DNA of 64,000 nucleotides, taken from Pseudomonas phage BRkr. The stretch lies in sequence record LC765218.1; one strand, given 5' to 3'. Made by a program: the position numbers and the translations under genes. Positions within the stretch are counted from its first letter, which is position 1. Every line of letters starts with the position of its first letter. Shown in pieces: positions 7,928 through 43,632 of the stretch. Below the pieces are notes generated by a model. That model was not told where the DNA came from. It ran no database searches and saw nothing but the letters and a program-made list of their open reading frames with translations.

Positions 7928-7970
7928 ATCGCCCTCTCCCGAAGGAGAGGGCTTTATGTTCCATTTTTTT
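7928..7970. terminator. terminator gccctctccc-gaa-ggagagggc + CTTTATGTTCCATTTTTTTTT at the convergent junction
   Basis: Same stem as the 2418 terminator; lies between plus gene 7610 and minus gene 7970..8803. Confidence 0.7.
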
Positions 7971-8803
7971 TATCGCATGTAAGCAGGTACACGAATCGGC
8001 TTCTTACGCGACCAACCTAGTTGTTGAATTAGATCAGTAACGTCTAGATTAGGATCAGATTCCATACCGATATTAGCACGCTTCTGTGCTTCATCCTGCA
8101 TCTTCCAAAGGGTAGCAGGTGTGATGATAACTTCGGTATCGGAGAAACTTTCCAAAGCAGGGGAGGTATATTTGTTAGCAATATAGATACCGCCCTCACC
8201 GACGAAGTCCCAGGTGGAAATTTCCCGTGTATACTTAATACCACGCATTACGTCGTCCTGTGTGATAGAACGAACGGAACAATAGGTATTGATACTTGGG
8301 TTATCCAAAGACTCTTTAAAAATGTGACCAAACGGACCGTAAGGTTTAACCTCACCGACGACCATTTTAACAGTCTTACCATTTTCATTCTTACCGGGAA
8401 CAATAGTCAATGCACGGATATGTGCACAAACCCGGTTATCGTCGATCATACGAATACGTTGCAGGTATTGACGATCATCCATCGGTTGACGAACAACACG
8501 ACCATCGATCATCAGGTCTGTAAACGGTTCAGGGTGTTTGAACTCCATGAAGAGAACACCTTTCTTAAGGCGACGCATCAGGGAAGAGTTCGGATCAAAC
8601 ATCGCAACGCCACTGGCTTCGTCATAGAACATACCAGCAGAGTTATGTGTACCATAGGCACCCAGAACTACAGTGTAATAACCGTCCGCATTCGGCGCAA
8701 GAATTCCTTTTTTGTCCGTACCCGCTAACATAGTGCAGCCGATACGTACTTGATTCTGCGGAGAATTTTGGACACCAAAAGAAGATTGTGCCAAAGGATG
8801 CAT
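7970..8803 (-). CDS. hypothetical protein (277 aa), distal gene of the RNAP-containing minus-strand operon; by position could correspond to the phiKZ gp175-177 region (unverified)
   Basis: ATG with ACGGAG SD; no motif recognised. Confidence 0.5.
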   Translation of the reverse strand: MHPLAQSSFGVQNSPQNQVRIGCTMLAGTDKKGILAPNADGYYTVVLGAYGTHNSAGMFYDEASGVAMFDPNSSLMRRLKKGVLFMEFKHPEPFTDLMIDGRVVRQPMDDRQYLQRIRMIDDNRVCAHIRALTIVPGKNENGKTVKMVVGEVKPYGPFGHIFKESLDNPSINTYCSVRSITQDDVMRGIKYTREISTWDFVGEGGIYIANKYTSPALESFSDTEVIITPATLWKMQDEAQKRANIGMESDPNLDVTDLIQQLGWSRKKPIRVPAYMR

Positions 8804-8818
8804 TTCTGCAACTCCGTG

Positions 8819-9541
8819 TTATGTCCTCAATAGCTCTTCAATCACTTCTACTTTCTCACTAGGGTTCACTAGTGCAGAGTTGATAGCGTCGCTGAAGTAA
8901 GCACCATTAAGTTTTGAGGTGGTATCTGAGGTGTTCCAAATAACCGATCGGAAAGGTACGGTTACTGGAGGTTTATTTTTAACATCATCATGCCGCGACA
9001 GAATGTGGCGGTATAGTCTTGTCATATCATCCGGATCACGAGCGATGGTTGAAATGATAAGCTCGATAATCGAACGACCACCAATAAATGTATCTGCATG
9101 TTCTTTTGCAGTTTCGAACATTTTCGCCATGTCATAATAGTTCATATACCAAGGGATGTTCCCTTTGGATACGAACTCGTCGTACATGTAATATGTTAGT
9201 GTGTCGTTGACCACAAGATGTGTCGAATAGAAAACTTTATCACCTTTCTCGAAACTAAATTCGTAATAAGGTTCACTCTCTACAACAACACGCTCAGTAG
9301 AGTTTGGAAGAATGCGCATCATCGCGATTGTATTATTAACCGCGTAAAACTCTTCATTCATGATGATAGGAAAGAATCCAAATATGAATACTTCACTACC
9401 TAATACAGCCAAGTTCTTAGCAGCAAAACGTTCTGGAATTTGAATCTTACAGGGAAGGTTTGTAGCAATACCACCATCTTCCAATTCAATCAGATTTGCA
9501 TTTACGCGTGCAACATCACGTGTTAATTGCCTAACGTTCAT
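8819..9541 (-). CDS. hypothetical protein (240 aa)
   Basis: ATG with AAGAGA SD. Confidence 0.5.
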   Translation of the reverse strand: MNVRQLTRDVARVNANLIELEDGGIATNLPCKIQIPERFAAKNLAVLGSEVFIFGFFPIIMNEEFYAVNNTIAMMRILPNSTERVVVESEPYYEFSFEKGDKVFYSTHLVVNDTLTYYMYDEFVSKGNIPWYMNYYDMAKMFETAKEHADTFIGGRSIIELIISTIARDPDDMTRLYRHILSRHDDVKNKPPVTVPFRSVIWNTSDTTSKLNGAYFSDAINSALVNPSEKVEVIEELLRT

Positions 9542-9610
9542 ATAAGTCTCTTCTTAGAAAAAGGAAAGTTGACACACTCCGGTACCCCGAAGGATACCGG
9601 AGGTTATCAA

Positions 9611-11317
9611 TTATGCTTGTTCTTCTTCTTCAGTTTCAGACTCAGTTTCTTCTTCACTGGCTTCTTCCTGCTCTTCTTCGACTTCTTCAGTCTCAGATTC
9701 AGTAGGAGTTTCATCAGCGTAAGGATCTTCTTCGTCTTCTACCTCCGGAGTTTCAGCCAGGGGACCTTCACCTTCTACTGCATCACCGACAGCATCGGCA
9801 ACTTCTTCACTAGTTGGTTCAGTGATTTCCTCTGGCACTTCTTCTGGTTCAGGAAGAGTTGCATTCGGATCAACATCAGGATTGAATGTTTCTACTTTGA
9901 TCTGCTGTGCTTGGAAAATAGCAATCAGCGAAATCAGAGCTTGAGTATTCAATTCACGTAGTTCTGCACCGGGGAAGTTTTGGCCATATTCATCGATAGT
10001 ATCGAGATACAGCTTATACATCGGTTCGATGTAGTAAGTACGGCAGATAAGATTACTGAATACGCAGTATGGATTATCCAGATCTTCGCGCCGAACGAAA
10101 CGCATGGCGGTAGCCAGTAGTTCACGTACGTTACCGATATTCATTTCACGTAAAGGACCTTCACCACAGTGTGCGAGGAAGGTATCAATAACGTCCTGCC
10201 GACGACGGCTCTCAGCGTAGTCGAGTGCCGCTTGTTTGATTAGCGGATATGTAGCGGTCCAGCGTTTGATGTAATGATCAGCACGTGCGTCAATGCCCTG
10301 TGCATGTACGACATTACCGCCATCAATAGCTGCACCAAGCAGAGCTTCAACAGAACCACCTTTAACGAGCCAGCTCTCAGCAACGTCACCGTTAAGAGTA
10401 ACAAGTACACGACGGTTTTCAACTGGGCGATGAGCTTCATAACGAAGTACAAGAGTATTAGACTCTCGCATTTCAAGACGATTCTCATACGCACGGATGA
10501 TGTAGAAACCAAGCATCTCATGGAGTAGACGAACCGTTTGTTCCCATTCTTCCGATGTTACGGATTCACCAGGTACTTCTTGTGGGTTCTCGATGTAATG
10601 ACCACAGATGAAATAAGCTAGAGTCAGTTCATCAAGATTAAACGGGAAAGCATTAGGATTGATAAAGCTCAGGTTAGAAACAGTCAAACCACGTGCAGTA
10701 CCAAATAGTTCACTCCAAACGTTTTCTACCCGTTGTGCCGGAATCTTAAGAGCCCATTCGGTAACTTGCTCTTGATCCAGGTGCGGGTTATTGATGGATA
10801 CCATCTCGATGATGGTAGCAGCATCAACCGGGCGAAGCATAAAGGTGCGATATTCCGGTAGAGGACGCACTTTAGCATAGCGAGTTTGGATGTGGTTAAC
10901 TAGACGAGGATCGTTATGAATCGGGTCGTAGTTGAAAGTGCTGACATCGCAATCCGCTTGAGAACTTACGTTCTGACGGGAGGCATAGTCAGTGGCCATT
11001 GCTTTAATAGCCGGAATGATAACGTTTTGAGTATTGAATTGAATCTTGGCAATAGCGGTATGCATATTGCTGATGATCGCTTCACGTTCTTCATTAACGT
11101 TCTCGGGTGCTTCAACGTTACTTTCGACAAAATGAGCTTCAACGGAAGCAGCCAGTTCATCGGACATTGCAACTTTATTACCTTCGGTTTCACAGTTGAA
11201 ACCGTCAGCATATACAGCTAGAGGGAACTCGGGGTTCGGAATTGTCAGAACACGTTCCTGTTCAGTGAATGCTTGAGCTGCATCGCGAACAGCGTCCAGA
11301 GTTTCGGGATTAAACAT
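9611..11317 (-). CDS. hypothetical protein (568 aa) with a ~70-aa poly-acidic (E/T/P-rich) C-terminal tail
   Basis: TAGGAG SD + ATG; C-terminus EEVEEEQEEASEEETESETEEEEQA. Confidence 0.55.
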   Translation of the reverse strand: MFNPETLDAVRDAAQAFTEQERVLTIPNPEFPLAVYADGFNCETEGNKVAMSDELAASVEAHFVESNVEAPENVNEEREAIISNMHTAIAKIQFNTQNVIIPAIKAMATDYASRQNVSSQADCDVSTFNYDPIHNDPRLVNHIQTRYAKVRPLPEYRTFMLRPVDAATIIEMVSINNPHLDQEQVTEWALKIPAQRVENVWSELFGTARGLTVSNLSFINPNAFPFNLDELTLAYFICGHYIENPQEVPGESVTSEEWEQTVRLLHEMLGFYIIRAYENRLEMRESNTLVLRYEAHRPVENRRVLVTLNGDVAESWLVKGGSVEALLGAAIDGGNVVHAQGIDARADHYIKRWTATYPLIKQAALDYAESRRRQDVIDTFLAHCGEGPLREMNIGNVRELLATAMRFVRREDLDNPYCVFSNLICRTYYIEPMYKLYLDTIDEYGQNFPGAELRELNTQALISLIAIFQAQQIKVETFNPDVDPNATLPEPEEVPEEITEPTSEEVADAVGDAVEGEGPLAETPEVEDEEDPYADETPTESETEEVEEEQEEASEEETESETEEEEQA

Positions 11318-11329
11318 GTTGACTCCTAA

Positions 11330-11524
11330 TTAACCGAGGAATTTGCACATACGGGCAACGATAGCTGCCTGAATATCTTCTTTGGTCAGATACTCACCTT
11401 CTAGAGTAGCTGCCGAGGTGTCACCGCCGATGGAGCGAAGCAAAGCTTCGGCTCCAAGTTCGGCAGCAGCAGTCAGAACAGCGATGTTCTGACTGAGTAC
11501 TACGTTGTTACTTTGATTTTGCAT
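11330..11524 (-). CDS. small acidic protein (64 aa); its start overlaps the last 17 nt of the RNAP beta-like gene
   Basis: ATG embedded in the ...ACAAATGCAAAATCAAAGTAA stop region; translational coupling is plausible. Confidence 0.35.
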   Translation of the reverse strand: MQNQSNNVVLSQNIAVLTAAAELGAEALLRSIGGDTSAATLEGEYLTKEDIQAAIVARMCKFLG

Positions 11525-14500
11525 TTGTGGTTCCTCGATAGAGAGCAGCTACGTGCTTGGAAAGAGCTTGCTGCAAGATTGTAGTGGTCGCAATCAGTTT
11601 AGGGGACATGACCATCCGTTCTTCAACCGAAGTGTTGCCGAAGATCAGACCAATCGGAGTACCGTCTTCACATTCGTTACGGCCATCCATTACCCGAGAG
11701 AATACAGTTTTCATCTGGTTCGCTACTACACCTTTGTCACCAGTACCACAAGGGATATCATGGTCGATGTAGATTCGGATAACCATGTTGTCAGGTTCAA
11801 GCATTTGACCTTTAACACGGAAGGATGCGTCGACTTCACCTGTGAATTCTGGTTCGTTCAACGACTTGGCCCTATCGGCTCTCTCTTTATCAGATGCTCT
11901 GGCTATCTTCTGAAGATTACTGGACATGTCTTCAATGTCACCATGATAGTAACATTCGATTTTAGAGATGGTCCCTACGACTTTAGCACGGGGTGCATTA
12001 GCCGAAAGTTTCTTCAGTGTTTCAATAGCAGCGGCACCAAACAGAGAGTTCTCGGCCATTTCGGGGTCTTGAATAGTACATAGAATTGAATCCAAGTCTA
12101 CGTGTTCTCCAACTTTGACCAAATTCTCAATCGACTGATCAAATCGAACAGTAATGTTCTTGATGTCAGTTGTCTGAGTATTAAGCTTAATAGCCACGTC
12201 TTTACTAATAACAGATCCGTCTTCAAGTGTATCAAGGTTATCGCAGAATGCAACACGAACCATGACACCAGCTTTCCAAAGAACTTGTCCAGGGGTATAA
12301 CGATCTTCGGTAAAATACTTACTATTGAAAGTAAGCGTATCACCGCGTTTGAACTTATCACCCTTCTTAAGTGTGGTAACGAGAGTATGCGGATAGTTTA
12401 CACCCGCAGCAGTACCATGGACGGTTCCAAGCTGAGAACTAAAGATCTCACCGTCAGCATATTTAACTGTAATGCCATGACCGTCTACTGCAATCACCTC
12501 TCCATCTTGTTCGGCGGCAGACGCAAAGATCGAACTGGTACGTTGAGCGATAATCTGCTCATAACCAGTGCGAAGAGGAGTTACCTCATAGCCATCTGCA
12601 TAGATACCTTGCTGTTGCTGAATACTAACGAAGTTAATCCGTTTCGGATCATCGTTTGTTGTAGCAACCCCGGTGAGAGCACCGGTAGATAGCATCTTAG
12701 CGGCGCCATCCTTACCTTTCTCAAACAACCGAGTTGTACCACGCATGCTGTTGAAGTTAGCATCAGGAGATAGATAAGCGATTACACCCACATCACCAGA
12801 GTCTACAGTGGATTCAGAAACTACACCCACGTCAGATTCATGGTAGATACGTGTACGGGCAACCATTGAAGTCGACCCACGACCACCATCACCACGATAA
12901 GTCATGGCTTCTTGCTCACGCAAGTTAGCGATTGGGTTAGAATCTTCAATAGTAGCTACGGTTGGGTCAGATGCAATCTTACGCCAAACTTCGTGTTGGT
13001 CCATCACGATCTGTTGATCCGCAGAACCTTCACGGTTGTTGTAGATACGAACAGCGCGGTTCAGACTACCGTAGATAGTTCCTGCCATGCGTTCATAACC
13101 ACGATAGCGCATATATGCACCATCTACTTCTGCTGGTGACCAGTCATTAGTTAGCAACTCTACGGAACGATACAGTAGCCCTTGGAAATCAGTAGGCTCT
13201 TTCATTTCTTCCAGAAGACCTTTTGTGATCGGGTCAACGAAAGAAGTAAACAAGCCATCGATTTCACGAGTGTATCGGGCAGACATACCAGCTTCTTCTA
13301 ATAGACGGAAGTAAACATCACGCCGGTCAAAGTCCCATCGAGAGAACTTCTTCAAAGATTGATGGTAACGTTTCAGCCCGGACAACACCAATGTCGCACG
13401 ATAATCTTGACGACTGAATACAAGGATCTCGTCAGAGAATGCCAGTGTATAATCATCAGGACTAACACTAATGCGAGTGCCACGCGGATGGCTCTGGTAT
13501 TGAACTCCAAGTGTATCAAGTAGAGTGGACAGGCCTTGGCGATAACCAAGAATGAAACCAAGTGGAAGCTCTTTGTTAGCAACTGAAACTAGAATAGCTT
13601 CAAGAGGAGCTTTAACCTGATTAAGACCTAGGATATCTACCATGGTGCCCATGGGTTCAAGTTCATTACCTTCTTTAACATAGAACTGAGACGAGCTGTC
13701 AACTAGAATAGGTAACCGATTATGGGCGCCTACTACAACCATCCCATCTTTCTCTAATGCTTCTACCGAAATACCGTAAGTCTTTTGGAAATATTCGGCA
13801 TGGTCATCGAACTTAAAATAGAACTCATTTGCTCCGTTCTTGAAAGAACGATAAGCTCTACCCAATGCAGAGTACACTCGCGGTAGAACGAACATAGACT
13901 GGTCTAGTTCTGCATAACGCACCTCAGTTACAGAGACATCGTTATTATCTCTTGCCCTAACACCAATCTGTCGAATCAACCAAGTATCGTAGTTGTTTTC
14001 TGCTCGTTCAGAACGTGTAACGAATGTCTTATTGTAATAACTTGTCAGAGCAACTTTAAGTGGGTTTACTTTACGGATTGGAATATCCGCACGTTGCAGA
14101 CGCTGACGATAAGTTACACCATTAGAACGGAAACGTCCATCGCGATCGATAACTGGAATACGGAAGCGCAGTTGAGAAGGTCGGCCACGAATAGGCTTGA
14201 CTGTTACAGTGAACGACTGATAATGGTTCATCGCGTCACGTACTTCTTCCATACGAACATCAGTTACTGCGACACCTTGTGCTTGAACAGACAAGATAGA
14301 TTGCATGATGTCTTTAGGTAGAAGAGTCTTCGTGTACTTACGCATCATCGATTTGTGAATAGAACCCAACATCGATTTATCAGTAATCGTGGATTTATCA
14401 GCAAACTGTTCGACTGGTACTTTAAAGTCTTCTTCTTCATAAACCATCGCCTCAGCGATAGTTTTACCAGATCCAAATGGATCAGGAATAGACTTGTACA

Positions 14501-15869
14501 TAGAAGCATCATCAACGGCTTGTTCAAACGAACGACCAGAGATCATGCCAACTTGATACAGTTCAAATGCTTTTTGTCCAACAGGGTCTACTAAAGCGTC
14601 ACCGCTGCTAAAAGCAGGTACGACCGATTTAGTTACCGGGGCTGTCTCTACTTTGAGAGTTGGTGTTTTATTGATCGGCGCCGTTTCGAGCGGATCTTTC
14701 TCGATGACGAGAGTAGTTTTCTCAAGCTCAGATTCAGGCGGTGGATCATAAACAACTTCGAGCATCCCGAGATCGAGTAATGTGCTAACATTAGATCCAG
14801 TTGCATTGGAATCATCGATCGCATCAATGTCGTTAGCTTCTTCAGTTTCTTCAGCACGTTCTGTAACTTCTTCGACTTCTTCGTCGTCTGTGTCAACCTT
14901 ATCTTCGGGTTCGATCAGGTCAGTGATCTTTGGAGTTTCAGGTTCGACTTCCATTAGAGTGTCGTTACCATTATTGAACTCAACCAAAGTAGTCAACAGG
15001 CTGATAACTCGACGTTGCATTACATCCGGTTTATAGAAAACTTCAAGACCGAGTTCATCCACAAAACTTTCAGTAGCTACTGTCTCTTGTTCCGCTATTA
15101 CTTCTGGAGCATCACGCCATGCTTCAAGTTGTCCAAGGTTAATAACAAAGAAGTTATTCTGGACACGAATCAGGAAGTTAATCTTTTCGTAAGCTTCTTT
15201 AGGTACGATCGACATATAAGACGAAGATCGATTATCACCAAGGAAACGATAAAGATCGAAAACGTTTAATACAGCGTTAGTACGGAATTTCTCAAGTAGT
15301 GCCTGAGTGGTACCGCGCTCTAACATCTTAAATTCATTAAACGTTGGCATGAATTCCGGAATATGGAGTTCGATGAACTGATTCCAACCAAAGCGTTTAT
15401 GTACATCGACAACACCTTTCCAGAAGGTAGCGGTGTTGTTACTCCAGCGATACCAGTTAGATTTGAAATTAGCTTGGTACTTCCAGAGTGGGTTTAGCAT
15501 GCTGTAGTTAAACACAGCAACGTTTTGAATATTGAGTTTTACAGCCGCATCTTTACGCAGTGGTTTGAAGAAACGGTGTTGGCGACGGAAATCAGCTTCA
15601 AGGGTAGTCGGAATAAGAGAAGTACGCCGAGCGTTACCATCGAGTGTTTCTAGCTGTGTAATGTGTTCAATGAACACCTTTCCCTGCAACTTAGCAAAGA
15701 GGGGGTCCGATTGACTCGGACCCTTTACAGCAGCGTTGTCATCAAGGAACTGATACACTACCTCTTGGGGTAGCTCTAGCTTCGTCAACGGGAACAGACG
15801 AGGACGCAGTAGTTCGCCTGAGTTTCGAAGACTGTAATTCTTCAGAAACTGATGAATTTTCAAACGCAT
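11508..15869 (-). CDS. multisubunit RNA polymerase beta-like subunit (C-terminal-half homolog, 1453 aa; phiKZ gp180-like virion RNAP subunit)
   Basis: C-terminus VIRIYIDHDIPCGTGDKGVV...CEDGTPIGLIFGNTSVEERMVM aligns with E. coli RpoB [28 protein letters not shown]...[23 protein letters not shown] with identical spacing; ANLREQEAM resembles the RpoB ANMQRQAV segment. Confidence 0.8.
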   Translation of the reverse strand: MRLKIHQFLKNYSLRNSGELLRPRLFPLTKLELPQEVVYQFLDDNAAVKGPSQSDPLFAKLQGKVFIEHITQLETLDGNARRTSLIPTTLEADFRRQHRFFKPLRKDAAVKLNIQNVAVFNYSMLNPLWKYQANFKSNWYRWSNNTATFWKGVVDVHKRFGWNQFIELHIPEFMPTFNEFKMLERGTTQALLEKFRTNAVLNVFDLYRFLGDNRSSSYMSIVPKEAYEKINFLIRVQNNFFVINLGQLEAWRDAPEVIAEQETVATESFVDELGLEVFYKPDVMQRRVISLLTTLVEFNNGNDTLMEVEPETPKITDLIEPEDKVDTDDEEVEEVTERAEETEEANDIDAIDDSNATGSNVSTLLDLGMLEVVYDPPPESELEKTTLVIEKDPLETAPINKTPTLKVETAPVTKSVVPAFSSGDALVDPVGQKAFELYQVGMISGRSFEQAVDDASMYKSIPDPFGSGKTIAEAMVYEEEDFKVPVEQFADKSTITDKSMLGSIHKSMMRKYTKTLLPKDIMQSILSVQAQGVAVTDVRMEEVRDAMNHYQSFTVTVKPIRGRPSQLRFRIPVIDRDGRFRSNGVTYRQRLQRADIPIRKVNPLKVALTSYYNKTFVTRSERAENNYDTWLIRQIGVRARDNNDVSVTEVRYAELDQSMFVLPRVYSALGRAYRSFKNGANEFYFKFDDHAEYFQKTYGISVEALEKDGMVVVGAHNRLPILVDSSSQFYVKEGNELEPMGTMVDILGLNQVKAPLEAILVSVANKELPLGFILGYRQGLSTLLDTLGVQYQSHPRGTRISVSPDDYTLAFSDEILVFSRQDYRATLVLSGLKRYHQSLKKFSRWDFDRRDVYFRLLEEAGMSARYTREIDGLFTSFVDPITKGLLEEMKEPTDFQGLLYRSVELLTNDWSPAEVDGAYMRYRGYERMAGTIYGSLNRAVRIYNNREGSADQQIVMDQHEVWRKIASDPTVATIEDSNPIANLREQEAMTYRGDGGRGSTSMVARTRIYHESDVGVVSESTVDSGDVGVIAYLSPDANFNSMRGTTRLFEKGKDGAAKMLSTGALTGVATTNDDPKRINFVSIQQQQGIYADGYEVTPLRTGYEQIIAQRTSSIFASAAEQDGEVIAVDGHGITVKYADGEIFSSQLGTVHGTAAGVNYPHTLVTTLKKGDKFKRGDTLTFNSKYFTEDRYTPGQVLWKAGVMVRVAFCDNLDTLEDGSVISKDVAIKLNTQTTDIKNITVRFDQSIENLVKVGEHVDLDSILCTIQDPEMAENSLFGAAAIETLKKLSANAPRAKVVGTISKIECYYHGDIEDMSSNLQKIARASDKERADRAKSLNEPEFTGEVDASFRVKGQMLEPDNMVIRIYIDHDIPCGTGDKGVVANQMKTVFSRVMDGRNECEDGTPIGLIFGNTSVEERMVMSPKLIATTTILQQALSKHVAALYRGTTNAKSK

Positions 15870-15871
15870 GG

Positions 15872-17524
15872 TTAAATCCTACTTTTCGGTTCCCCAGTCA
15901 TATACCGGAGAGTTAGATTAAGCGTGTGGATGTTGACACTGAATGCAAGACCACCACCAGCCTTGATATAAGCTAAACGAGATTTAAAGAATCGATCGGA
16001 TTCTTCAATAGCCTCTTTAGAATACACGGCGTTGAATGACACAGTGTCACCGTCGAAGTCCGCACCAAGAGGAGCAAGAATAGACGGGGAAATAGACGTG
16101 GAGTCATGCCATTGCGCCGGTTCGTTAATAGTGATGATTGGATATTCTAATGCGATCTCAGCATTAGTATCTCGTTCCCAGTCCCAACCAAGTGGGTAGC
16201 GCATCTCACCTTTAACAGTTGTCTTCACGTACATCTTTACAGGAATAGAACTGTTATAGTTCTCAACAGGGTAACGAGTAACGAATGCGGAGTTTCTTTT
16301 CCACATAGGTAATCCGCTTAGGTAAATCAATTCAGCATAGGAAATAGGACGCACGAACTTCTTGTCGAGCTTCTTCGGCATTTCTTCAATATCCCTAAAG
16401 ATCTTGAAGTTTTGCTTGTCATCAAGATAGACCAATGCCAAATAATGCCCAGCGATCTCAATTGCACGAGAACGCTTTTCGATGACCTTTAGTTCACCAA
16501 TAACGCGTTCAAGACCTTCGGGAGTTCCCCATATGTCCATCTCTTCGTTACTAATATTAACCCATTCCAGTTTCAATGTCTTCTTATTGATAAGCTCAAC
16601 ACGAGTAGAGAGACTATCGAAGACTTGACCGACAACACCATTGCGTAAATGGTAAATAGTCTTTGGTTTAACGGATACAGCTGCTTGATAAATACCAATT
16701 ACGGCATCTTTGAACTTAGGACGGTTTGGCTGATCAAGATCAGCAGCATTGGTATCAAGCGAACTAATAACGTTACGAGTACCATTAAATACTCGACGAG
16801 ATGCCCATTTCTGTTGAATATAACCACCCTTGCCAGATAATAGGTTTTCGTAATGGTTATAAATCGCAAGAGCAGTCAACTGCATCGAAGTACGCTTACG
16901 ATCATAAATACTCAGATCGTCATTAGGTCCGAAATATTCAGGGACACCATAAGACTGGTTAAGCAGATATCGATAGTGTTCGTTAACTTCGTCCATCGAT
17001 ACACGGCCATCAACATCAATCTCGGCCTCACGATATGCAGCTGGAATAACGAGCATGTTTTTGAATGTACAGTTTTTCATGTACTTCTTCATCAACTCTA
17101 CCCGTACTCGACGAATAGATGATTTAGTTTCACCGAAATCGATCTTCTTCCAGTTATCAAAGAAAAAGGCGTAACCGGTTTTACCTTCAAGCTCATTGGA
17201 ACGTACGAAGTCTTTAGCAACTGGATCAAATACAGCGAATGATTTACCAAGAATGATCTCTTCGTAGAAAGCCTTTAGTTTAATAAGGTTACGATAGATC
17301 ACAGGGTGGATAATCTCAAGACCCATGTTGATATAACCGAATCGACCTTCACGTTCAGTAGAGCCTACTCGTCCGAAAATCTCTACGGAGAATAAACCTT
17401 TCTCATGAAAGTTACCACCGGTACCTTCGAAGATCTCGTGGCTAGTTACTTGTCCCAACATCGAAAGCTGTGCTTGGGTCGGAATCAAAAGATCAATGTT
17501 GAATGGGACTAGTGCCTTCTTCAT
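15872..17524 (-). CDS. multisubunit RNA polymerase beta-prime N-terminal-like subunit (550 aa; phiKZ gp178-like)
   Basis: GLFSVEIFGRV / RFGYINMGLEIIHPVIY (RpoC GLFCARIFGPV / RMGHIELAAPVAHIWF), RRVFNGTRNVISS (RpoC KRVDYSGRSVITV), and LGADFDGDTVSFNAV (catalytic NADFDGD); 2-nt gap to the downstream beta-like gene. Confidence 0.8.
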   Translation of the reverse strand: MKKALVPFNIDLLIPTQAQLSMLGQVTSHEIFEGTGGNFHEKGLFSVEIFGRVGSTEREGRFGYINMGLEIIHPVIYRNLIKLKAFYEEIILGKSFAVFDPVAKDFVRSNELEGKTGYAFFFDNWKKIDFGETKSSIRRVRVELMKKYMKNCTFKNMLVIPAAYREAEIDVDGRVSMDEVNEHYRYLLNQSYGVPEYFGPNDDLSIYDRKRTSMQLTALAIYNHYENLLSGKGGYIQQKWASRRVFNGTRNVISSLDTNAADLDQPNRPKFKDAVIGIYQAAVSVKPKTIYHLRNGVVGQVFDSLSTRVELINKKTLKLEWVNISNEEMDIWGTPEGLERVIGELKVIEKRSRAIEIAGHYLALVYLDDKQNFKIFRDIEEMPKKLDKKFVRPISYAELIYLSGLPMWKRNSAFVTRYPVENYNSSIPVKMYVKTTVKGEMRYPLGWDWERDTNAEIALEYPIITINEPAQWHDSTSISPSILAPLGADFDGDTVSFNAVYSKEAIEESDRFFKSRLAYIKAGGGLAFSVNIHTLNLTLRYMTGEPKSRI

Positions 17525-17591
17525 TTCAAATTTCCTCTTAGGGGTTACAAAAAGCTAAACGATATGATTGTTTATATCGATGGAGTTGACC

Positions 17592-20500
17592 ATGGCTACA
17601 AAAAAGACCAAGCTGCCAAAACCTGCTGGGATGAATGCCCAGAACAGAATTGGTGTACTTGACCTTAATGAGCTGGACGACCTGTTTGATGATGTCGGTG
17701 AAACCACCAAACCTGGTGATCCAGTAACCGATTTCAAATCTGGTCTGAAAGAGGGCTTCCTCGGTGGATTGAAAACCAAAGACATCGTAAGGAATTTCTT
17801 ACGAAGCGCAGCGCCTGATGGTTTCGCGCGTCTTTTTGGTGCCTATGATGATGTAATGGCTTCGGTAACCGATATCAAAGATACGGTCGAAAGAGTCAAT
17901 GCATCCGACCTAGATTACCTTGGTCGTAAAGCACAGGATTATCTACCCCAGTTAAAAGATCGCATTCCAAATGCCTTATACGAAAATATCTCTGATACGC
18001 TCACCAGAAAGGTTGAACAATATCAGTACGAAGTGGATTCCCAAAGGGACCAAATCGCTATTCGTCGTCGTCGGCAAGAAAATGATGATGCAAATGTAAT
18101 TAAAGCTGCTCTCGATCAGAATACGCTGGTAAGCAGAGAAAACTTCCAACGTAGTGAACAGGGTGCAGTTGCCCGCGCTGCCGTTGAAAGAGCAGAACGT
18201 GGAATTCGTGATAAAGTAAGTGCTGGACGCTTTGACTTTATGTCCCGTTCGATGGGGATGGCTGTAGATAGTCTAACTCGTCTTGTAGGATATAACGAAC
18301 AAGTTAATTATGGAATTCAACGTAAAGGCCTTGAACTTCAGTTCCGTACCTACATGGGTATTAGGGATCTTGTTAAAGTACAAGAAGCTAATCTTGAATT
18401 GCAGAATAAGGCTTATGAAGCATTAGTTCGTAATACCGGCTTACCAGACTACAAGAAAGGCAATGTTGGCGATCTAACCAGTTTTGGTTCAGGTCGCGGC
18501 CGGGGCAACATGCTCGGACGCCTAGCTGGCGGAGCTGCACAGGGCCTTCATGGCTTCTTGGGTAGTTATGGTAACAAAGTAAACGAACGTGTTGCCAGCG
18601 GCCTGGGCGGACGTCTATCGGAGATCGTAGCCGGTCTACGCATGGGCGATATGGCTGGTTCATCCGTTTGGGATAATCGCTATAAGTTCGCTGGTCAAAT
18701 CGCAGGTGAATACGGTGCCGATATCCTTAAGTCGTCTATTGTTCCATGGGCAGGTCGTAAAGTTCGTCCGACTATGGAAAAACTATCCAACCGTTTTGGT
18801 GGACGCCATCATCAGGTAGGGTATGCCCTAGACAACGTTCCAGCATATCTACAAGAGTTCGTTAATAACTACCAAAACACTTATGGTTTCCGTGGCGTTA
18901 TCCGTGATGCTATTATGCCATTCGTTCCTCAGTACCACATGAACGATCGTTTGGAAAACGGAAACTATCAAACAATTGATCAAGGCACGGCCTTTAACCA
19001 ATTGACGCAGCGTAGTATCGTTGAAGTCATCCCAGGTTACCTGTCTCGCCAGCTTCAAGAATTGCGAATGATTCGCACTGGTCGTGATGATATCGAGCGT
19101 GAAGTATTCGATATTACAACTGGTCGATTCGAAGTTCAATCGCTGTCGGATGATCGTCTTCAGAAGAAGATTATTCCAGCAGCAGCAATTCGAAGTGCGA
19201 GTGGTGCCATTAATGACACATTGAACTTGATGGATGAAGAGGGTAAACTTTCTCCAGCTGCACGTAAGGCACTTGGTGAACGTATGCTTCGCGATGCATC
19301 TACAAACCGTAGATTTGATCCAGAAGCTTACCTTAAATCCGGCGGTTATATGGATGGCTTAGATGCCACCACCACAGATGAAATTCAAAGGTTCTTCAAG
19401 AGTAAGTTCCAGTACGACGATAAAGGTAAAATGGCGGATAACGCTGATAACCATCGTCTACGTGATGAATACTCGCGTGCCTTCCTCGATATTCGTTCTG
19501 TAAGTCGTGACCCAGTTAAAGAAGTACATCGTCTAATTAATGCCGGTCAAACCGAGCCTCTTCGGATGCTTGGCATTATCATTACTGAACAAGGTCAAGA
19601 TAGAATAAACTATAACCGTATTTGGGAAATCATGCGCTCCGGCGTGACTGATACAAACCCATGGGTTAATGGTGACTATCAACCTGAAGCTTCTGGTGAT
19701 ATGAATGATAAGAACTTCTTTGGTCCTGCTTACCCAGGTGCAGCTAAAGCCAATGCGCTTAATGCAATGCACCGCTTCCGGAATAAGCATGCTCCACAGG
19801 AAGATCGAATCAAGAAAGAACTATCTCGCTACAGCCGTATTGCACAGGGGAAATTCCAGTACCTGAACAATAAGCACGGCGCCGGTATACATGACTTTGC
19901 TAACAACATGCGTAATGGTCAATTTGGTCCTTACGTTGCTGGTCTGCAAGGAGCTTGGAATGATGCGAGTGTAATGGGTCAAGATCTCTATTCTAAGACA
20001 CGTGCTAAGTTTGGAGAACACATGGATCAGTTCCAGAATGATCCAACCCAATATGCAATCGGTCAGAAAGATAAGATCATTGATGTGTTCACGAAGTTTA
20101 ATCCAAATGAACCCATCATTAAAGGTATTGATTTTGTTCAAGGTAACCTTGTTGACTTTAATACTAAAAAGATTATCGAATCTGTACACGACATTACCGG
20201 TAAGGTTGTTTCTACAACTGGCATGACGGTTCTAACAGCATCTGAAGTTGCCCAGGGTCTGTTTGATAAGAAAGGAATGCGTCTTGAATTACCTGCCTTC
20301 ATGAGCAATGCAGCGGACAAAATCCGCGGTGCTCTAATGGGTGGACAAACTCCTCCTGCTCAACAGTTTGCTGAAGGTGAAAACGCACAGCAAAAACAAG
20401 CAGCTGAAGATGATAAGCATGACTGGTATTTGGATGGTGAGCAAGAACCTACTATCTCTGCTCGTGGTCTAAAGAACGGTGAATACTTCAACGCAGATGG

Positions 20501-23500
20501 TGACCAGATTAATTCGATGCAAGACATCAAAGGTGATGTACTTGATAAGAATGGATCTATCATTGCAACTGCTAAGGAACTAGCTTCTGGTCTATGGTCG
20601 CGTGCTACTCGTAAACGTTGGCGTCTTACTAAGACAGGTCGGCGTCTAGCAAATGTAGCGGGTTGGGGTGCCAAGTTCATGGCAACGAATACATCTACCT
20701 TAGCGTGGAACGCACTGAAGTTTGGTGCTAAGACAGCGATCGGTATGGGTTCGGCCCTATTCAACTTCGCGATTGAAACTCAGAATGCTTATTTACCTGG
20801 TGATGATGTACCTGTACTCGAACGAAGACTAGTTAATGCTGGTAAGTACTTCGATGATAAAGGTCGCGTAATTGAAAACTTTGGCGATGTGTATGGCACG
20901 ATCTTTAACGAGAGAGGCGAACCTGTAATAGAACCATCTCTGTATAAAGACCTTAAGAACTACGACGGTACCAAACATATATTAGCTAAGAATAAAGGTA
21001 TCATCCGTAAGACTGTATGGCGTGGTATTCGCGCTGCTCGTTCGAAGTATATCGATGCTTCCATGAAGTACATGGGTTGGGCATTGAAGAAGACGGGTAA
21101 GTTCTATGGTGGTGCAGCTAAGAAAGTGTTTGGTGGTTTCGCTAAAGCGGGTGGTAACGTTCTTGGACGTATCTTTGAACGAGTACCATACGAAGACTTC
21201 GAAACAACTGATCAAGTACTATTGGGTCGCATTCTTGAAACTCTTCAAGCACAAGTTCCAGAAAAGCTCCGAGCTGGTAGTTGGCAGGATAAAGCAGAAA
21301 AGGCCAAAGAAGGCGCTGCTGGCTTGATGGATAAATTGAAGGGGAAAGGAGATGGGGATACTGATAAAGCTGAAAATAAAGTCCTGAAGGGGTTATCCGA
21401 TGGACTGAAAGGTATCTTCAGTAAACTTACCGGTACCGAAGGTGAAGAAGGCTCTGGTGCGTTCGACGTGCTTATGGGCGGTGGTATGAAAGGTGGCGCT
21501 AAAGGTCGTTTAATGGGCCTTGCTAAACGCGCAGTTCCTTGGCTCCTTGGAGGTACCGCTGCTGCTGTAGGTACAGGCGCCATGGCGTATGGTTATAGTA
21601 AAGATGGAATGGATGCAAAGCAGACAGGTATCCTGACTGCGATGAGTCTTAATTCACTTGGACAATTAACTGCACGTTATATCCTGAAACCTATCTTTGG
21701 TCAAATGAATGATCAGAGGGCAGAGTTCCGTCGTCTTCGGATGCTGCAATACGGTATCACTGATCATGATCAGCAACAGAAAGTCTCTGCGCTTGAAGAT
21801 GCTTTTGATCGCGTAACTGAACGGACAGAAGAACCTGACTTTAATATCAGTGGAGTTGGTGGTAAGGCTATTCTTGACATTCTTGGCATTGACGTTAAGA
21901 ATGAAGTCCAAGTAATGCGGATGTCTCGCTGGTTGGAAATGCGTTTCCGTCCTGTCTTCCTGACTTGGGTTAAGGCATTAGCTAAACTCAAGAAGAATGA
22001 AGTTAAACTCGTTGATATCGATAGTAAGTTCCCACAAGAACTGAAAGGACCATTAGTTAAAGCTGTTAAGATTTCTGTATCTGGTGATACACCGATGCAG
22101 TATCGTGTCGATCCATTCTCTGAAGAAGGTGAATTGGAAGATACCATCCCAGCAGCCGATCAACTATGGAAAGCTCTATACGTTCGCTATAAAGCGGGTG
22201 AGAAGAAAGAAGATGCTGTACCGGCTACAGCGGCTAATACCGAAGTAGCTACTAAAGCTCAGGATATCGCCAAGAAAGCGGCAGATACTGCAACTGGTAA
22301 AACTACACCGAGTCCAATGGATCCTACTAAATCAGCAATGCCTTTGGCTGCTGCTAAGAAAGCTTTCCCTGGTCTAGGTGGTTCAACTGGTGCACCCATA
22401 GTCGCAACCTCGGCAGCTACCACTAAACTAACTGCACTCCAATCCATCCGGATGCGTGCTTACGGTTTAGAAGTACTGAGTTTCTACAATGTCTATCCTC
22501 TTCTAAATGCTGAGGCAATGGTATTTGATGGTCTATCTATTCAGGGTGGTATTCCTGAATTCCGTGGTGACCTAGAATCTATCATGCAAGAAACAGCACC
22601 GCTGTTTGGTAAGGATATCGTTGGTAGTGACGAAGATCGTTCGGCTTACTACGATTGGTTCGTTGGTCGATTCATGCCTGTTGCTCGTGCTTACTACGGA
22701 GCAATGCGTAGTTCGACTCAAGGAACAACCATTGCGAACATGGAATCTAAACTTAAACCCAGCGATGCCGTTATCGTGGGTAATGCTGTACTGGGCGTCA
22801 CTGATTTTGATGGCTCTAGCGTATGGCAGGTTGATTCCATTTTCCCAATTAAGGGAAGTAAAGACGATCTCAAGAAAATGGCTGAAGCTGATTTGGAACA
22901 ACTGAAGAAAGATGCAAGCAAAGACATCATGTCTACGCCGACTCAATCTGCTGGTGACCAAGCAGCTGGAACACAAAGTGCAGCCGCAGGTGGCAGCTTT
23001 GCCGAGAGGGCAATGGCTTCTATCTCGAATACTTGGGAGTCTACTAAAGAAACAGTGAGTAATGCATGGAATAATACCAAGGCAGCTGGCGCTAAAGCAA
23101 TGGACTACATGTCCGACGCTACAGCGACTGCGCAATACAAGCTTGGTATGGCTGGTGAGGTATCTGCAACAGGTCGTACATACGGAACTCTGACGAAGGG
23201 TAACGGTGGCGCTTGGGAACAGATTCCATATCCGAAAGCTAACAAGTCTCGTCAAGCTGCTGCTGAAACATTCCAAGCAGTTGCTGCGATGGTCGGTATT
23301 CCTGTAGAACTGCTGTTCATCTTTGCATCACTTGAGTCTGGTTTTGATTATACTGTCAAAGCTAAGACATCGTCTGCAACCGGATGGTTCCAGTTTATCA
23401 ATAGTACCTGGGACGCAATGTTGGCGAAACATGGCTCCAAGTTCGGTATACCTCCAGACGACGCCCAGCGTAGTTTACGTGTTGATCCACGTATCAACGC

Positions 23501-24362
23501 CTTAATGGGTGCATGCTTCCTTAAAGATAACTACACTTACCTCAAAGATGCATTAGGTCGTGATCCTACGGACGTTGACCTATATATCGCACACTTCATG
23601 GGTCCAGGTGGTGCTCGTAAGTTCTTGACTCGTAATCAGGATACTATCGGCGCATCTGTTTTCCCAGAAGCCGCATCTGCTAACCGACCTATCTTCTACA
23701 AGAAAGGTGGACAACCCCGTACACTCGGGGAAATCTATCAAATGTTCGAAGAGAAGATCGCGAAGCATCGCGGTGGGGCTGAAGGTAGCTCTGTAGCTAC
23801 ACAGGAAGCTGGTAAGACAATGACCACTGATGAGGCAACAGAAGAACAAGCTAAGGCTAATGCCAAAACATCTGCTGCTGAACTATGGAATACTGATGAT
23901 AGTAACAATGCAGGCAATGCAGCTGTTGCTCGCGAAGAAGCTTACAGTGCCACTGGTACTGCTGCCCAAACGCCGGTACTTCCAGGTATTACCCCAATGA
24001 ACCCTGTGGGTGGGACAACTACTAGCGGTGCTAATCCATCTGCTGATAGTGGCGGTAATGTGGTCCAAGCTCAACAAGAAGCAGCTCTTCAAGCAGCACA
24101 GCAGTATAATTCGACTCGTCAAGCTGAAGTACGTCGTAATAACGAGAAGGCTCAACAGATCGATGATATCCAAGCTGAGCAGCTTAAGACGTTAATTGAG
24201 ATGCGTGATCATCTCAAGCGTTTGGTACAATTGAACGAACAAAAGGACAGTGGTACCAAAGAAGCTTCGAAAACCCAAGCCGGAGGAAATAATAGTATGA
24301 CCTCCACGTTAATGAGATCGACCTCGGCTCAAAATCGACCGTCGCCGCTCACGCTAACTTAA
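17592..24362 (+). CDS. giant virion protein (~2256 aa) with a C-terminal lytic transglycosylase (SLT) domain; phiKZ gp181-like
   Basis: GGAG SD before ATG 17592; SLT motif [38 protein letters not shown]...[14 protein letters not shown] at ~23290-23700; Gly/Ala-rich and coiled-coil segments. Confidence 0.8.
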
Positions 24363-41672: not shown

Positions 41673-41680
41673 CGAATCAC

Positions 41681-42631: not shown

Positions 42632-42633
42632 TA

Positions 42634-43620: not shown

Positions 43621-43632
43621 GTTAAATCATCC

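What the first reader, a model, noticed from the sequence alone, without database searches (positions are those of the whole stretch)
11508..17524. Split multisubunit-type RNA polymerase: a beta-prime N-terminal fragment (Zn finger deleted) and a beta C-terminal-like fragment encoded as two coupled genes
The 550-aa product carries three hallmark RpoC N-terminal segments, including the absolutely conserved catalytic NADFDGD (here GADFDGD). It lacks the CxxC...CxxC zinc finger between the GLFxxRIFG and RxGHIEL segments. The 1453-aa product ends with a segment that aligns residue-for-residue with the RpoB double-psi beta-barrel region (IY-x9-GDK ... GTP-x12-RM). It carries an 8-residue deletion that removes the RHGNKG lysine-containing loop, and it stops about 45 aa later, so the GEMEVWAL portion of beta is absent. 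The two genes are separated by 2 nt. A 64-aa ORF overlaps the stop of the beta-like gene, and a 568-aa gene with a poly-acidic tail follows in the same operon. The beta-prime C-terminal and beta N-terminal halves are not in this window. Placement next to a gp181-like giant gene matches the virion RNAP (gp178/gp180) of phiKZ-like phages. The deletion and truncation pattern and the associated small ORFs are what may differ from described enzymes.
Basis: partly seen in the sequence, partly recalled or inferred. Interest (0 to 1): 0.8.

Follow-up and report, generated by a model that had tools for sequence, protein, structure and literature searches.

The report
phiKZ-type virion RNA polymerase genes
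These are the already described genes for the multi-piece RNA polymerase that phiKZ-like giant Pseudomonas phages pack into their heads; the general identification is right, but the supposedly unusual deletion and truncation are a miscount and a family-wide, published subunit split.

Summary
The window is 99.5% identical to sequenced Pseudomonas jumbo phages (phiLBG22, HHBS36_1, PS119XW), which are relatives of phiKZ.

**What the genes are**
- The 550-aa gene is the orthologue of phiKZ gp180, the virion-RNAP beta'N subunit. It carries an invariant DFDGD.
- The 1453-aa gene is the orthologue of phiKZ gp178.
- The cluster has the same order as in phiKZ: gp181 | gp180-gp178-gp177.1-gp177-gp176-gp175.

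**Confirmed from the finding**
- The coordinates and motifs are correct.
- The two genes are separated by 2 nt.
- A conserved 64-aa ORF (gp177.1 family) overlaps the end of the beta gene.
- The 568-aa protein has an acidic tail.
- The beta' zinc finger is absent: a 28-residue gap, with a single Cys in the whole protein.

**Wrong in the finding**
- There is no 8-residue deletion. GDK-x7-K aligns without gaps to E. coli and Thermus GDK..RHGNK, and both lysines are invariant. The length difference is 2 residues.
- The 1453-aa protein is not a beta C-terminal fragment. It is a phage-specific extension of about 430 aa plus roughly the first 1140 of 1342 E. coli beta positions.
- The missing beta C-terminus is a separate subunit (phiKZ gp149 family), encoded about 17.6 kb outside the window.
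- The literature's beta'C candidate (gp176 family, 240 aa) lies inside the window at 8819-9541.

**Verdict:** already known and ordinary for this phage family. The only local difference from phiKZ and PhiPA3 is that neither gene carries a homing-endonuclease intron.

The parts
15872..17524 (-). beta'N subunit of the virion RNA polymerase (550 aa; orthologue of phiKZ gp180 / SPN3US gp240). It ends just after the catalytic double-psi barrel.
   Evidence: phrog_2986 E 1.8e-222. 75.7% identical to phiKZ gp180. Family profile hits AR9 nvRNAP beta' 7S01_d at E 1.6e-15 and bacterial beta' chains. hhalign places residues 462-547 on E. coli beta' 439-518.
16046..16060 (-). Codons for D489-F-D-G-D493, the Mg-binding catalytic motif (GADFDGD at 487-493).
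   Evidence: Invariant in 24 homologues down to 45% identity. phiKZ carries its gp179 intron between GAD and FDGD. The window gene is uninterrupted.
17342..17374 (-). Short linker (residues 51-61, GRVGSTEREGR) in place of the beta' N-terminal Zn-binding domain.
   Evidence: 28-residue gap against E. coli beta' residues 69-96. No Cys here in any of 24 homologues. The whole protein has one Cys, C152.
11508..15869 (-). betaN subunit (1453 aa; orthologue of phiKZ gp178 / SPN3US gp241). Residues 1 to about 300 form a conserved phage-specific domain. Residues about 300-430 form an acidic linker. Residues about 440-1453 are homologous to bacterial beta up to about E. coli residue 1140.
   Evidence: phrog_3148 E 0. 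62.6% identical to phiKZ gp178 over the full length. The AF2 model of residues 420-1453 has pLDDT 81 and matches whole bacterial beta chains by Foldseek at E 5e-27. hhalign places residues 1060-1422 on E. coli beta 661-1110, E 4.3e-8. No Pfam hit.
11610..11795 (-). First half of the beta double-psi barrel (residues about 1359-1420). It includes K1379 (GDK; codon 11733-11735) and K1387 (NQMK; codon 11709-11711).
   Evidence: Gapless alignment to Thermus beta 822-883 and E. coli beta 1044-1110. Both lysines are invariant. After this segment the model shows only one long helix before the stop.
11330..11524 (-). 64-aa conserved ORF (phiKZ gp177.1 family). Its start overlaps the last 17 nt of the betaN gene. 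Function unknown.
   Evidence: phrog_21542 E 2.6e-31. 57% identical to phiKZ gp177.1. GAGGA lies 7 nt upstream of the ATG.
9611..11317 (-). 568-aa head protein with an acidic tail (orthologue of phiKZ gp177 / SPN3US gp243). It is a head-assembly or ejection protein, not a polymerase subunit.
   Evidence: phrog_3841 E 3.1e-125. 46.8% identical to phiKZ gp177. SVE at residues 58-60 matches the phiKZ gp177 protease site SVE-60 (PMC5694885).
9577..9602 (-). Hairpin (CTCCGGTA-10 nt-TACCGGAG) followed by a T-rich tract, just after the 568-aa gene. Possible terminator or attenuator separating two transcription units.
   Evidence: Read directly from the sequence. Function inferred.
8819..9541 (-). 240-aa virion protein (orthologue of phiKZ gp176 / SPN3US gp244). 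The literature names it as the fifth vRNAP subunit, beta'C.
   Evidence: 66% identical to phiKZ gp176. phrog_2926 E 5.6e-95. 849 family representatives, all about 240 aa. The subunit assignment comes from PMC5105663 and PMC7618050. My own homology tests against beta' were negative or weak.
7970..8803 (-). Prohead maturation protease (phiKZ gp175 orthologue), the last gene of the cluster. It is followed by a GC-rich hairpin at 7931-7952.
   Evidence: phrog_3014 E 1e-91. 58.8% identical to gp175. Hairpin.
17568..24362 (+). Divergently transcribed gp181-like giant tail protein with a transglycosylase domain (context). The annotated start in HHBS36_1 corresponds to window position 17592.
   Evidence: phrog_3201 E 0 and phrog_4067 E 3.2e-46. 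Synteny with phiKZ gp181.

Best explanation
The region is the main gene cluster for the virion-packaged, multisubunit RNA polymerase (vRNAP) of a phiKZ-like (Chimalliviridae) Pseudomonas jumbo phage.

**Composition.** In this family the enzyme is built from five polypeptides that together replace bacterial beta and beta'. They are beta'N, beta'M, beta'C, betaN and betaC. There are no alpha, omega or sigma homologues. The window encodes:
- beta'N (550 aa), which holds the DFDGD barrel;
- betaN (1453 aa), which has a phage-specific N-terminal extension followed by beta up to the first half of its barrel, including the two RNA-contacting lysines;
- the beta'C candidate (240 aa), according to the literature.

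These are interleaved with a conserved 64-aa ORF and a head-assembly protein, and followed by the prohead protease. beta'M and betaC are encoded elsewhere in the genome.

**Mode of action.** This step rests on work with phiKZ, 201phi2-1 and SPN3US and was not tested here. The subunits assemble before entering the prohead. About 10 copies are packed per head. They are ejected with the DNA and transcribe early genes independently of the host polymerase.

**Expression.** Tight spacing (a 2-nt gap, a 17-nt overlap and a 12-nt gap) suggests translational coupling of beta'N, betaN, the 64-aa protein and the 568-aa protein. This is an inference.
For: - Near-identity to sequenced phages: 99.4-99.6% over 7.9 kb in five records. 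The two genes are already annotated 'RNA polymerase beta subunit' in HHBS36_1 and PA1C.
- Orthology and gene order with phiKZ gp175-gp181.
- PHROG matches at E 1.8e-222 and E 0.
- Profile hits to AR9 nvRNAP beta' and to bacterial beta' and beta chains.
- hhalign to genuine E. coli RpoB and RpoC.
- AF2 model with pLDDT 81 that matches full bacterial beta chains at E 5e-27.
- Invariant DFDGD and two invariant lysines.
- betaC and beta'M genes are present in the 99.5%-identical genome at 152460-153134 and 238499-239842. They are absent from the window.
- Literature: vRNAP = gp178, gp149, gp180, gp80 and gp176 (PMC7618050). Five-subunit genetics and proteomics in SPN3US (PMC5105663, PMC5694885). 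Co-immunoprecipitation and about 10 copies per virion (PMC10612078). Review: PMC7598289.
Against: - Nothing contradicts the identification.
- Sequence profiles of betaN residues 500-800 did not hit beta. Homology of that part rests on the fold match and the literature.
- Virion packaging and activity were not tested for this particular phage.
Confidence: 0.95

Rival explanations
1. One reading: a structurally deviant polymerase whose beta-like subunit is only a C-terminal fragment. It has lost the RHGNKG lysine loop and the GEMEVWAL region, so the enzyme differs from the described phiKZ-type vRNAPs.
For: The protein does stop 34 residues after the RM motif. R and H of RHGNK are replaced (A-N-Q-M-K).
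Against: The alignment to Thermus and E. coli beta is gapless across GDK-x7-K, with only a 2-residue length difference, and both lysines are invariant. phiKZ gp178 is colinear, 1451 aa, and ends at the same place, as do all 18 homologues. The fold match covers nearly whole beta chains. The GEMEVWAL-bearing part is a separate known subunit (gp149 family), which is present in the near-identical genome (PMC5105663).
Confidence: 0.02
2. These genes encode the second, non-virion polymerase (nvRNAP) of the phage rather than the packaged one.
For: Both enzyme sets consist of split beta/beta' homologues. The best solved-structure match of beta'N is an nvRNAP subunit, AR9 7S01_d.
Against: The genes are orthologous to phiKZ gp178 and gp180, which are head proteins, and lie among head genes including the protease. 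Three further genes annotated 'RNA polymerase beta subunit' lie elsewhere in the near-identical genome, at 246721-250832 and from 261533. By their position relative to phiKZ gp71-74 and gp55 these are probably nvRNAP subunits, but their orthology was inferred from position and not tested. phiKZ nvRNAP beta'N keeps the Zn-binding domain (PMC7618050), which this protein lacks.
Confidence: 0.02
3. The polymerase-like proteins are catalytically dead relics that serve only as internal head or ejection proteins.
For: The sequences are extremely divergent (about 13% identity to bacterial beta in structural alignments). Neither protein has a Pfam hit. The Zn-binding domain is lost.
Against: DFDGD and both barrel lysines are invariant across a large family. 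The vRNAP subunit genes are essential in SPN3US (PMC5105663). Early transcription in phiKZ is host-RNAP independent (PMC13282480).
Confidence: 0.01

Closest known systems
phiKZ virion RNA polymerase (gp180 beta'N, gp178 betaN, gp149 betaC, gp80 beta'M, gp176 beta'C)
   Same: Orthologous proteins at 75.7%, 62.6% and 66% identity for gp180, gp178 and gp176. The gene order gp181 | gp180-gp178-gp177.1-gp177-gp176-gp175 is the same, as are the protein lengths and C-terminal ends.
   Different: phiKZ gene 180 is interrupted between GAD and FDGD by an intron carrying gp179. The window gene is continuous and abuts the betaN gene with a 2-nt gap. The 568-aa protein is longer than gp177 (519 aa), and the tblastn match with gp177 does not extend into its C-terminal ~80 residues, which hold the acidic tail.
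Salmonella phage SPN3US vRNAP (gp240, gp241, gp218, gp42, gp244)
   Same: The same five-piece architecture. betaN has an N-terminal region of about 400 aa without beta homology. The cluster beta'N-betaN-(small ORF)-gp243-beta'C-protease is the same (PMC5105663, PMC5694885).
   Different: Only about 30% identical (phiKZ-group values in PMC5105663 Table 6). Processing by the prohead protease differs between phages. Whether it occurs here is unknown.
PhiPA3 vRNAP beta gene (gp211/gp209) with the gp210 HNH intron
   Same: Close relatives: beta'N is 79% identical (P0002) and the beta exon product 71% (P0143). The conserved NDD|PKR insertion site is the same (residues 1072-1077 here).
   Different: The window gene has no intron. 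Around the site, 41 of 63 nt match phiKZ, whose gene is cut by gp210 (PMC11620839). Sensitivity of this phage to gp210 is unknown.
Jumbo-phage non-virion RNAPs with solved structures (phiKZ nvRNAP 7OGP; AR9 nvRNAP 7S00/7S01)
   Same: Split beta/beta' homologues without alpha or omega. beta' is split right after the catalytic barrel. AR9 nvRNAP also lacks the beta' Zn-binding domain (PMC7618050).
   Different: Four core polypeptides plus a promoter-specificity subunit. The beta split site is elsewhere (PMC7598289). phiKZ nvRNAP keeps the Zn-binding domain. They are not packaged into virions.
Bacterial RNA polymerase core (E. coli and Thermus beta and beta')
   Same: The beta fold along nearly the whole chain. 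DFDGD and the GDK...K lysines are in register.
   Different: Split into five polypeptides. About 13% identity. The beta' Zn finger is absent. betaN has an extension of about 430 aa. There are no alpha, omega or sigma subunits (literature).

Membership tests
phiKZ-type vRNAP beta'N (phiKZ gp180 / SPN3US gp240; phrog_2986) | Full-length homology to the family. | tested here: met
   phrog_2986 E 1.8e-222 covering residues 1-543. 75.7% identity to phiKZ gp180. 821 homologues.
phiKZ-type vRNAP beta'N (phiKZ gp180 / SPN3US gp240; phrog_2986) | Catalytic DFDGD motif, with the polypeptide ending just after the beta' double-psi barrel. | tested here: met
   D489, D491 and D493 are invariant. Residues 462-547 align to E. 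coli beta' 439-518 and the protein ends at 550.
phiKZ-type vRNAP betaN (phiKZ gp178 / SPN3US gp241; phrog_3148) | Colinear homology, including the N-terminal region of about 400 aa that is not beta-like. | tested here: met
   62.6% identity over residues 1-1451 of gp178. phrog_3148 covers residues 3-1447. No Pfam or PDB sequence match for the N-terminal part.
phiKZ-type vRNAP betaN (phiKZ gp178 / SPN3US gp241; phrog_3148) | Bacterial beta fold with the two conserved barrel lysines, stopping inside beta so that betaC is separate. | tested here: met
   Foldseek E 5e-27 to beta chains. K1379 and K1387 correspond to E. coli K1065 and K1073. The protein ends at about E. coli residue 1140 of 1342.
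Five-subunit jumbo-phage vRNAP | Genes for betaC (gp149 family) and beta'M (gp80 family) in the same genome. | tested here: met
   Not in the window (no tblastn hit). Present in the 99.5%-identical genome HHBS36_1 at 152460-153134 and 238499-239842. The gp149 family occurs in 292 phage records.
Five-subunit jumbo-phage vRNAP | beta'C subunit (gp176 / SPN3US gp244 family) homologous to the cellular beta' C-terminal conserved region. | tested here: inconclusive
   [not shown]
Five-subunit jumbo-phage vRNAP | Packaged in the virion, ejected with the DNA, and transcribes early genes. | not testable with these tools
   Known for phiKZ, 201phi2-1 and SPN3US (PMC10612078, PMC5694885). Inferred here from orthology.
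Cellular-type multisubunit RNAP beta' | N-terminal four-Cys Zn-binding domain, described as shared by all multisubunit RNAPs (PMC7618050). | tested here: not met
   28-residue gap over the E. coli Cys70/72/85/88 segment. One Cys in the whole protein. No Cys at this place in 24 homologues.
Bacterial RNAP core | Alpha dimer and omega subunits. | not tested
   The whole genome was not scanned. The literature states they are absent from these phages (PMC7598289).

The most novel reading that the evidence does not exclude
The conserved 64-aa protein (gp177.1 family) has a start codon that overlaps the end of the betaN gene, so it is probably made in step with betaN. It could be an unrecognised assembly, packaging or initiation factor of the virion polymerase. 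No sigma-like or specificity subunit has yet been identified for this enzyme. More broadly, the family-wide loss of the beta' Zn-binding domain may be linked to a different way of gripping promoter DNA or the RNA exit path.
Probability: 0.08. Interest if true: 0.4.

Novelty: already known. Interest (0 to 1): 0.1.

Why it matters
It matters little as a discovery. The genes, their split architecture, their neighbours and even this phage lineage are already in public records and papers.

The check is useful in three ways:
- It removes a false lead, the supposed loss of the catalytic lysine loop.
- It corrects which polymerase pieces are and are not in the window.
- It points to what is still open for the family. 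I found no solved structure of any jumbo-phage virion polymerase: no close homologue in the PDB copy and none in the paper search. It is also unknown how the enzyme recognises early promoters, how the beta barrel, which appears here to be split between two polypeptides, reassembles after ejection, and whether the 240-aa and 64-aa proteins are true subunits.

Tried and rejected
- **Single-sequence searches.** Pfam found nothing for either polymerase protein. phmmer against PDB gave no hit for the 550-aa protein and weak beta hits for the 1453-aa protein. Family profiles were needed.
- **Testing the 240-aa protein as beta'C.**
  - Two family profiles against PDB returned only chance hits.
  - hhalign against phiKZ gp74 and E. 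coli RpoC gave E 0.26 and 0.35.
  - Foldseek against PDB had a best E of 0.026, to unrelated folds.
  - A profile search of 1.84 billion representatives returned only same-length family members among the 150 shown.
  - This is left as inconclusive.
- **phiKZ gp149 against PDB.** No beta hit, so the betaC assignment rests on annotation and literature.
- **betaN residues 500-800 against PDB.** No beta hit. Only the fold comparison supports homology there.
- **Sigma-70 promoter scan of the cluster.** Fewer hits than in shuffled sequence (11 against 19.4). This is uninformative, because these genes are read by the phage's own polymerase.
- **Rejected readings.** A novel deletion or truncation variant, an nvRNAP, and an inactive relic (see the rival explanations).
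- **Numbering caution.** Alignments A1, A2 and A3 were built from references that dropped the initiator Met, so tool-reported positions from them are one less than true residue numbers. The numbers in this report are true positions, taken.

Full report
**Source of the window.** The 7.9-kb stretch 9611-17524 matches five sequenced Pseudomonas aeruginosa jumbo-phage records at 99.4-99.6% identity over its full length: phiLBG22, HHBS36_1, phiHQ and PS119XW (two records). It matches PA1C at 96.7%. phiKZ-group phages match more distantly. In HHBS36_1 and PA1C the two large genes are already annotated 'RNA polymerase beta subunit'.

**What is in the sequence.** The minus strand carries a tightly packed row of genes:
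- 15872-17524, 550 aa
- 11508-15869, 1453 aa
- 11330-11524, 64 aa
- 9611-11317, 568 aa
- 8819-9541, 240 aa
- 7970-8803, 277 aa

A 2264-aa gene runs divergently from 17568.
- TAA-CC-ATG between the first two genes, with AGGA upstream.
- The 64-aa ORF starts inside the last 17 nt of the 1453-aa gene, behind a GAGGA.
- The 568-aa gene follows 12 nt later, behind TAGGAG.

After the 568-aa gene there is a hairpin plus a T-rich tract (9577-9602). After the 277-aa gene there is a strong GC hairpin (7931-7952). The first four genes are therefore probably one translationally coupled unit. That is an inference.

**Identity of the genes.**
- PHROG profiles match the 550-aa and 1453-aa proteins end to end, at E 1.8e-222 and E 0. 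Both families are annotated 'RNA polymerase beta subunit'. The 64-aa and 568-aa proteins match families of unknown function.
- The phiKZ RefSeq record shows the same order: gp181 | gp180, (gp179), gp178, gp177.1, gp177, gp176, gp175.
- tblastn of the phiKZ proteins against the window gives these identities:

| phiKZ protein | Identity to window |
|---|---|
| gp180 | 75.7% |
| gp178 (over all 1451 residues) | 62.6% |
| gp177.1 | 57% |
| gp177 | 46.8% |
| gp176 | 66% |
| gp175 | 58.8% |

- The literature defines the phiKZ virion RNA polymerase as gp178, gp149, gp180, gp80 and gp176 (PMC7618050). gp180 carries DFDGD and there are about 10 copies per virion (PMC10612078).
- In SPN3US the orthologues are named betaN (gp241, 1401 aa), betaC (gp218, 222 aa), beta'N (gp240), beta'M (gp42) and beta'C (gp244, 240 aa). 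All five must be present for any of them to enter the head (PMC5105663, PMC5694885).

**The 550-aa protein.**
- GADFDGD lies at 487-493, and the three aspartates are invariant in 24 homologues down to 45% identity.
- The family profile hits the AR9 non-virion polymerase beta' subunit (7S01_d, E 1.6e-15) and many bacterial beta' chains.
- hhalign against the genuine E. coli RpoC sequence, fetched, aligns residues 462-547 with beta' 439-518. The polypeptide therefore ends just after the catalytic barrel, which is the published split site (PMC7598289).
hhalign aligns residues 40-81 to E. coli 52-121 with a 28-residue gap exactly over the four-cysteine segment. This pairwise alignment is weak (E 0.0028, probability 10.8%), so the stronger support is the cysteine count.
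- The protein has one cysteine in total. None of 24 homologues has cysteines at this place.
- This is a family trait, not a peculiarity of this phage. The AR9 non-virion enzyme also lacks the domain, while the phiKZ non-virion enzyme keeps it (PMC7618050). I did not find the loss stated explicitly for virion enzymes in the papers I read.

**The 1453-aa protein.**
1. There is no 8-residue deletion.
   - HMMER aligns the family profile to Thermus beta 822-883 without a gap across GDK...K.
   - hhalign does the same with E. coli RpoB 1044-1110: GDKGVVANQMKTVFSRVM against GDKMAGRHGNKGVISKIN, with a 2-residue gap only further on.
   - Counting confirms it: 23 residues separate GDK from GTP here, against 25 in Thermus.
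   - K1379 and K1387 correspond to E. coli K1065 and K1073, the barrel lysines that contact the RNA (PMC7598289). Both are invariant in 18 homologues. Only R and H of RHGNK are replaced.
2. It is not a C-terminal fragment of beta.
   - hhalign covers E. coli beta 661-1110 (E 4.3e-8).
   - An AlphaFold model of residues 420-1453 (pLDDT 81.4, pTM 0.77) matches whole bacterial beta chains (Foldseek E 5e-27, probability 1.0, about 1050-1290 alignment columns).
   - A sequence profile of residues 500-800 alone did not reach beta. For that part I rely on the fold match and on PMC5105663.
   - Residues 1 to about 300 are a conserved phage-specific domain. Residues about 300-430 are an acidic linker with 38 D/E against 9 K/R. 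The literature proposes a head-targeting role for this region. 201phi2-1 removes it at TFE-275, while SPN3US keeps it (PMC5105663, PMC5694885).
3. The early stop is real but normal.
   - All 18 homologues end about 35 residues after the RM motif.
   - After the first barrel strands the model shows only one helix.
   - The missing roughly 200 residues of beta belong to the separate betaC subunit.

**Where the other pieces are.**
- phiKZ gp149 (betaC, 224 aa) and gp80 (beta'M, 449 aa) have no match in the window.
- In HHBS36_1 they are annotated at 152460-153134 and 238499-239842. Three further genes annotated 'RNA polymerase beta subunit' lie at 246721-250832 and from 261533, and by position these are probably non-virion subunits.
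- Window position 1 corresponds to record position 134882, so betaC lies about 17.6 kb outside the window.
- The published beta'C candidate, by contrast, is inside the window (8819-9541).
- I could not confirm its beta' homology independently. HMMER and hhalign gave nothing and Foldseek gave nothing.
- The original authors also reported only E 0.05 and relied on genetics and proteomics (PMC5105663).

**The 568-aa and 64-aa products.**
- The 568-aa protein is the gp177 / SPN3US gp243 orthologue. It is an essential head protein needed to load abundant internal proteins, and it is not a polymerase subunit (PMC5694885).
- It keeps SVE at residues 58-60, the site at which phiKZ gp177 is cut.
- The 64-aa ORF is conserved (phrog_21542; phiKZ gp177.1) and has a good ribosome-binding site. 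Nothing is known about its function.

**Only local difference from described relatives.**
- phiKZ gene 180 is split between GAD and FDGD by an intron carrying gp179. I found its second exon upstream of gp178.
- PhiPA3's beta gene is split at NDD|PKR by the gp210 homing-endonuclease intron (PMC11620839).
- Many metagenomic homologues are truncated at the same two points.
- Both window genes are uninterrupted.

**Verdict.** The claimed unusual features are either a miscount (the deletion) or the normal, published architecture (the split). No close homologue of either protein has a solved structure in the PDB copy, and a paper search found no jumbo-phage virion polymerase structure. The open questions therefore belong to the family, not to this locus.

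Noticed in passing
window 16046-16060 and 12648-12650 (compare L002 10159-11786): Both polymerase genes lack the homing-endonuclease introns that interrupt their orthologues at exactly these conserved sites. phiKZ carries the gp179 intron between GAD and FDGD, and PhiPA3 carries the gp210 intron at NDD|PKR. Around the gp210 target, 41 of 63 nt match phiKZ, so sensitivity to that nuclease is open. Many metagenomic homologues are 489-aa or about 1090-aa truncations at the same points.
   Followed up: partly
[not shown]
   Followed up: partly
window 9577-9602 and 7931-7952: Two hairpins flank the downstream part of the cluster. CTCCGGTA-N10-TACCGGAG plus a T-rich tract lies after the 568-aa gene. 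GCCCTCTCC-TTCG-GGAGAGGGC lies after the protease gene, between converging genes. They are possible terminators for the phage's own polymerase.
   Followed up: no
window 11144-11146 (codon of E60 of the 568-aa protein) and 15042-15050 (GLE 274-276 of betaN): The 568-aa protein keeps SVE at residues 58-60, the site where the prohead protease cuts phiKZ gp177. betaN has GLE at 274-276, close to the position (TFE-275) where 201phi2-1 removes its betaN propeptide. Whether either site is cut in this phage is unknown.
   Followed up: no
window 40719-44583 (- strand): Four tandem genes of 316-328 aa. One is annotated 'virion structural protein' in HHBS36_1. They look like a paralogue array, as is typical of phiKZ-like head or tail gene families.
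   Followed up: no
window 37295-40450 (- strand): A 1051-aa protein with strong helicase/ATPase-type PHROG matches (phrog_62, E 2.8e-137). It is annotated 'DarB-like antirestriction protein' in HHBS36_1 and sits next to a 1016-aa virion structural protein, so it may be a packaged enzyme.
   Followed up: no
L007 36722-38833 (HHBS36_1 248721-250832), outside the window: A single 703-aa gene annotated 'RNA polymerase beta subunit' sits here. By position it is probably the non-virion betaN gene, which in phiKZ is in pieces (gp71, gp72, gp73). The orthology was not tested. If it holds, this lineage is intron-poor in its polymerase genes generally.
   Followed up: no
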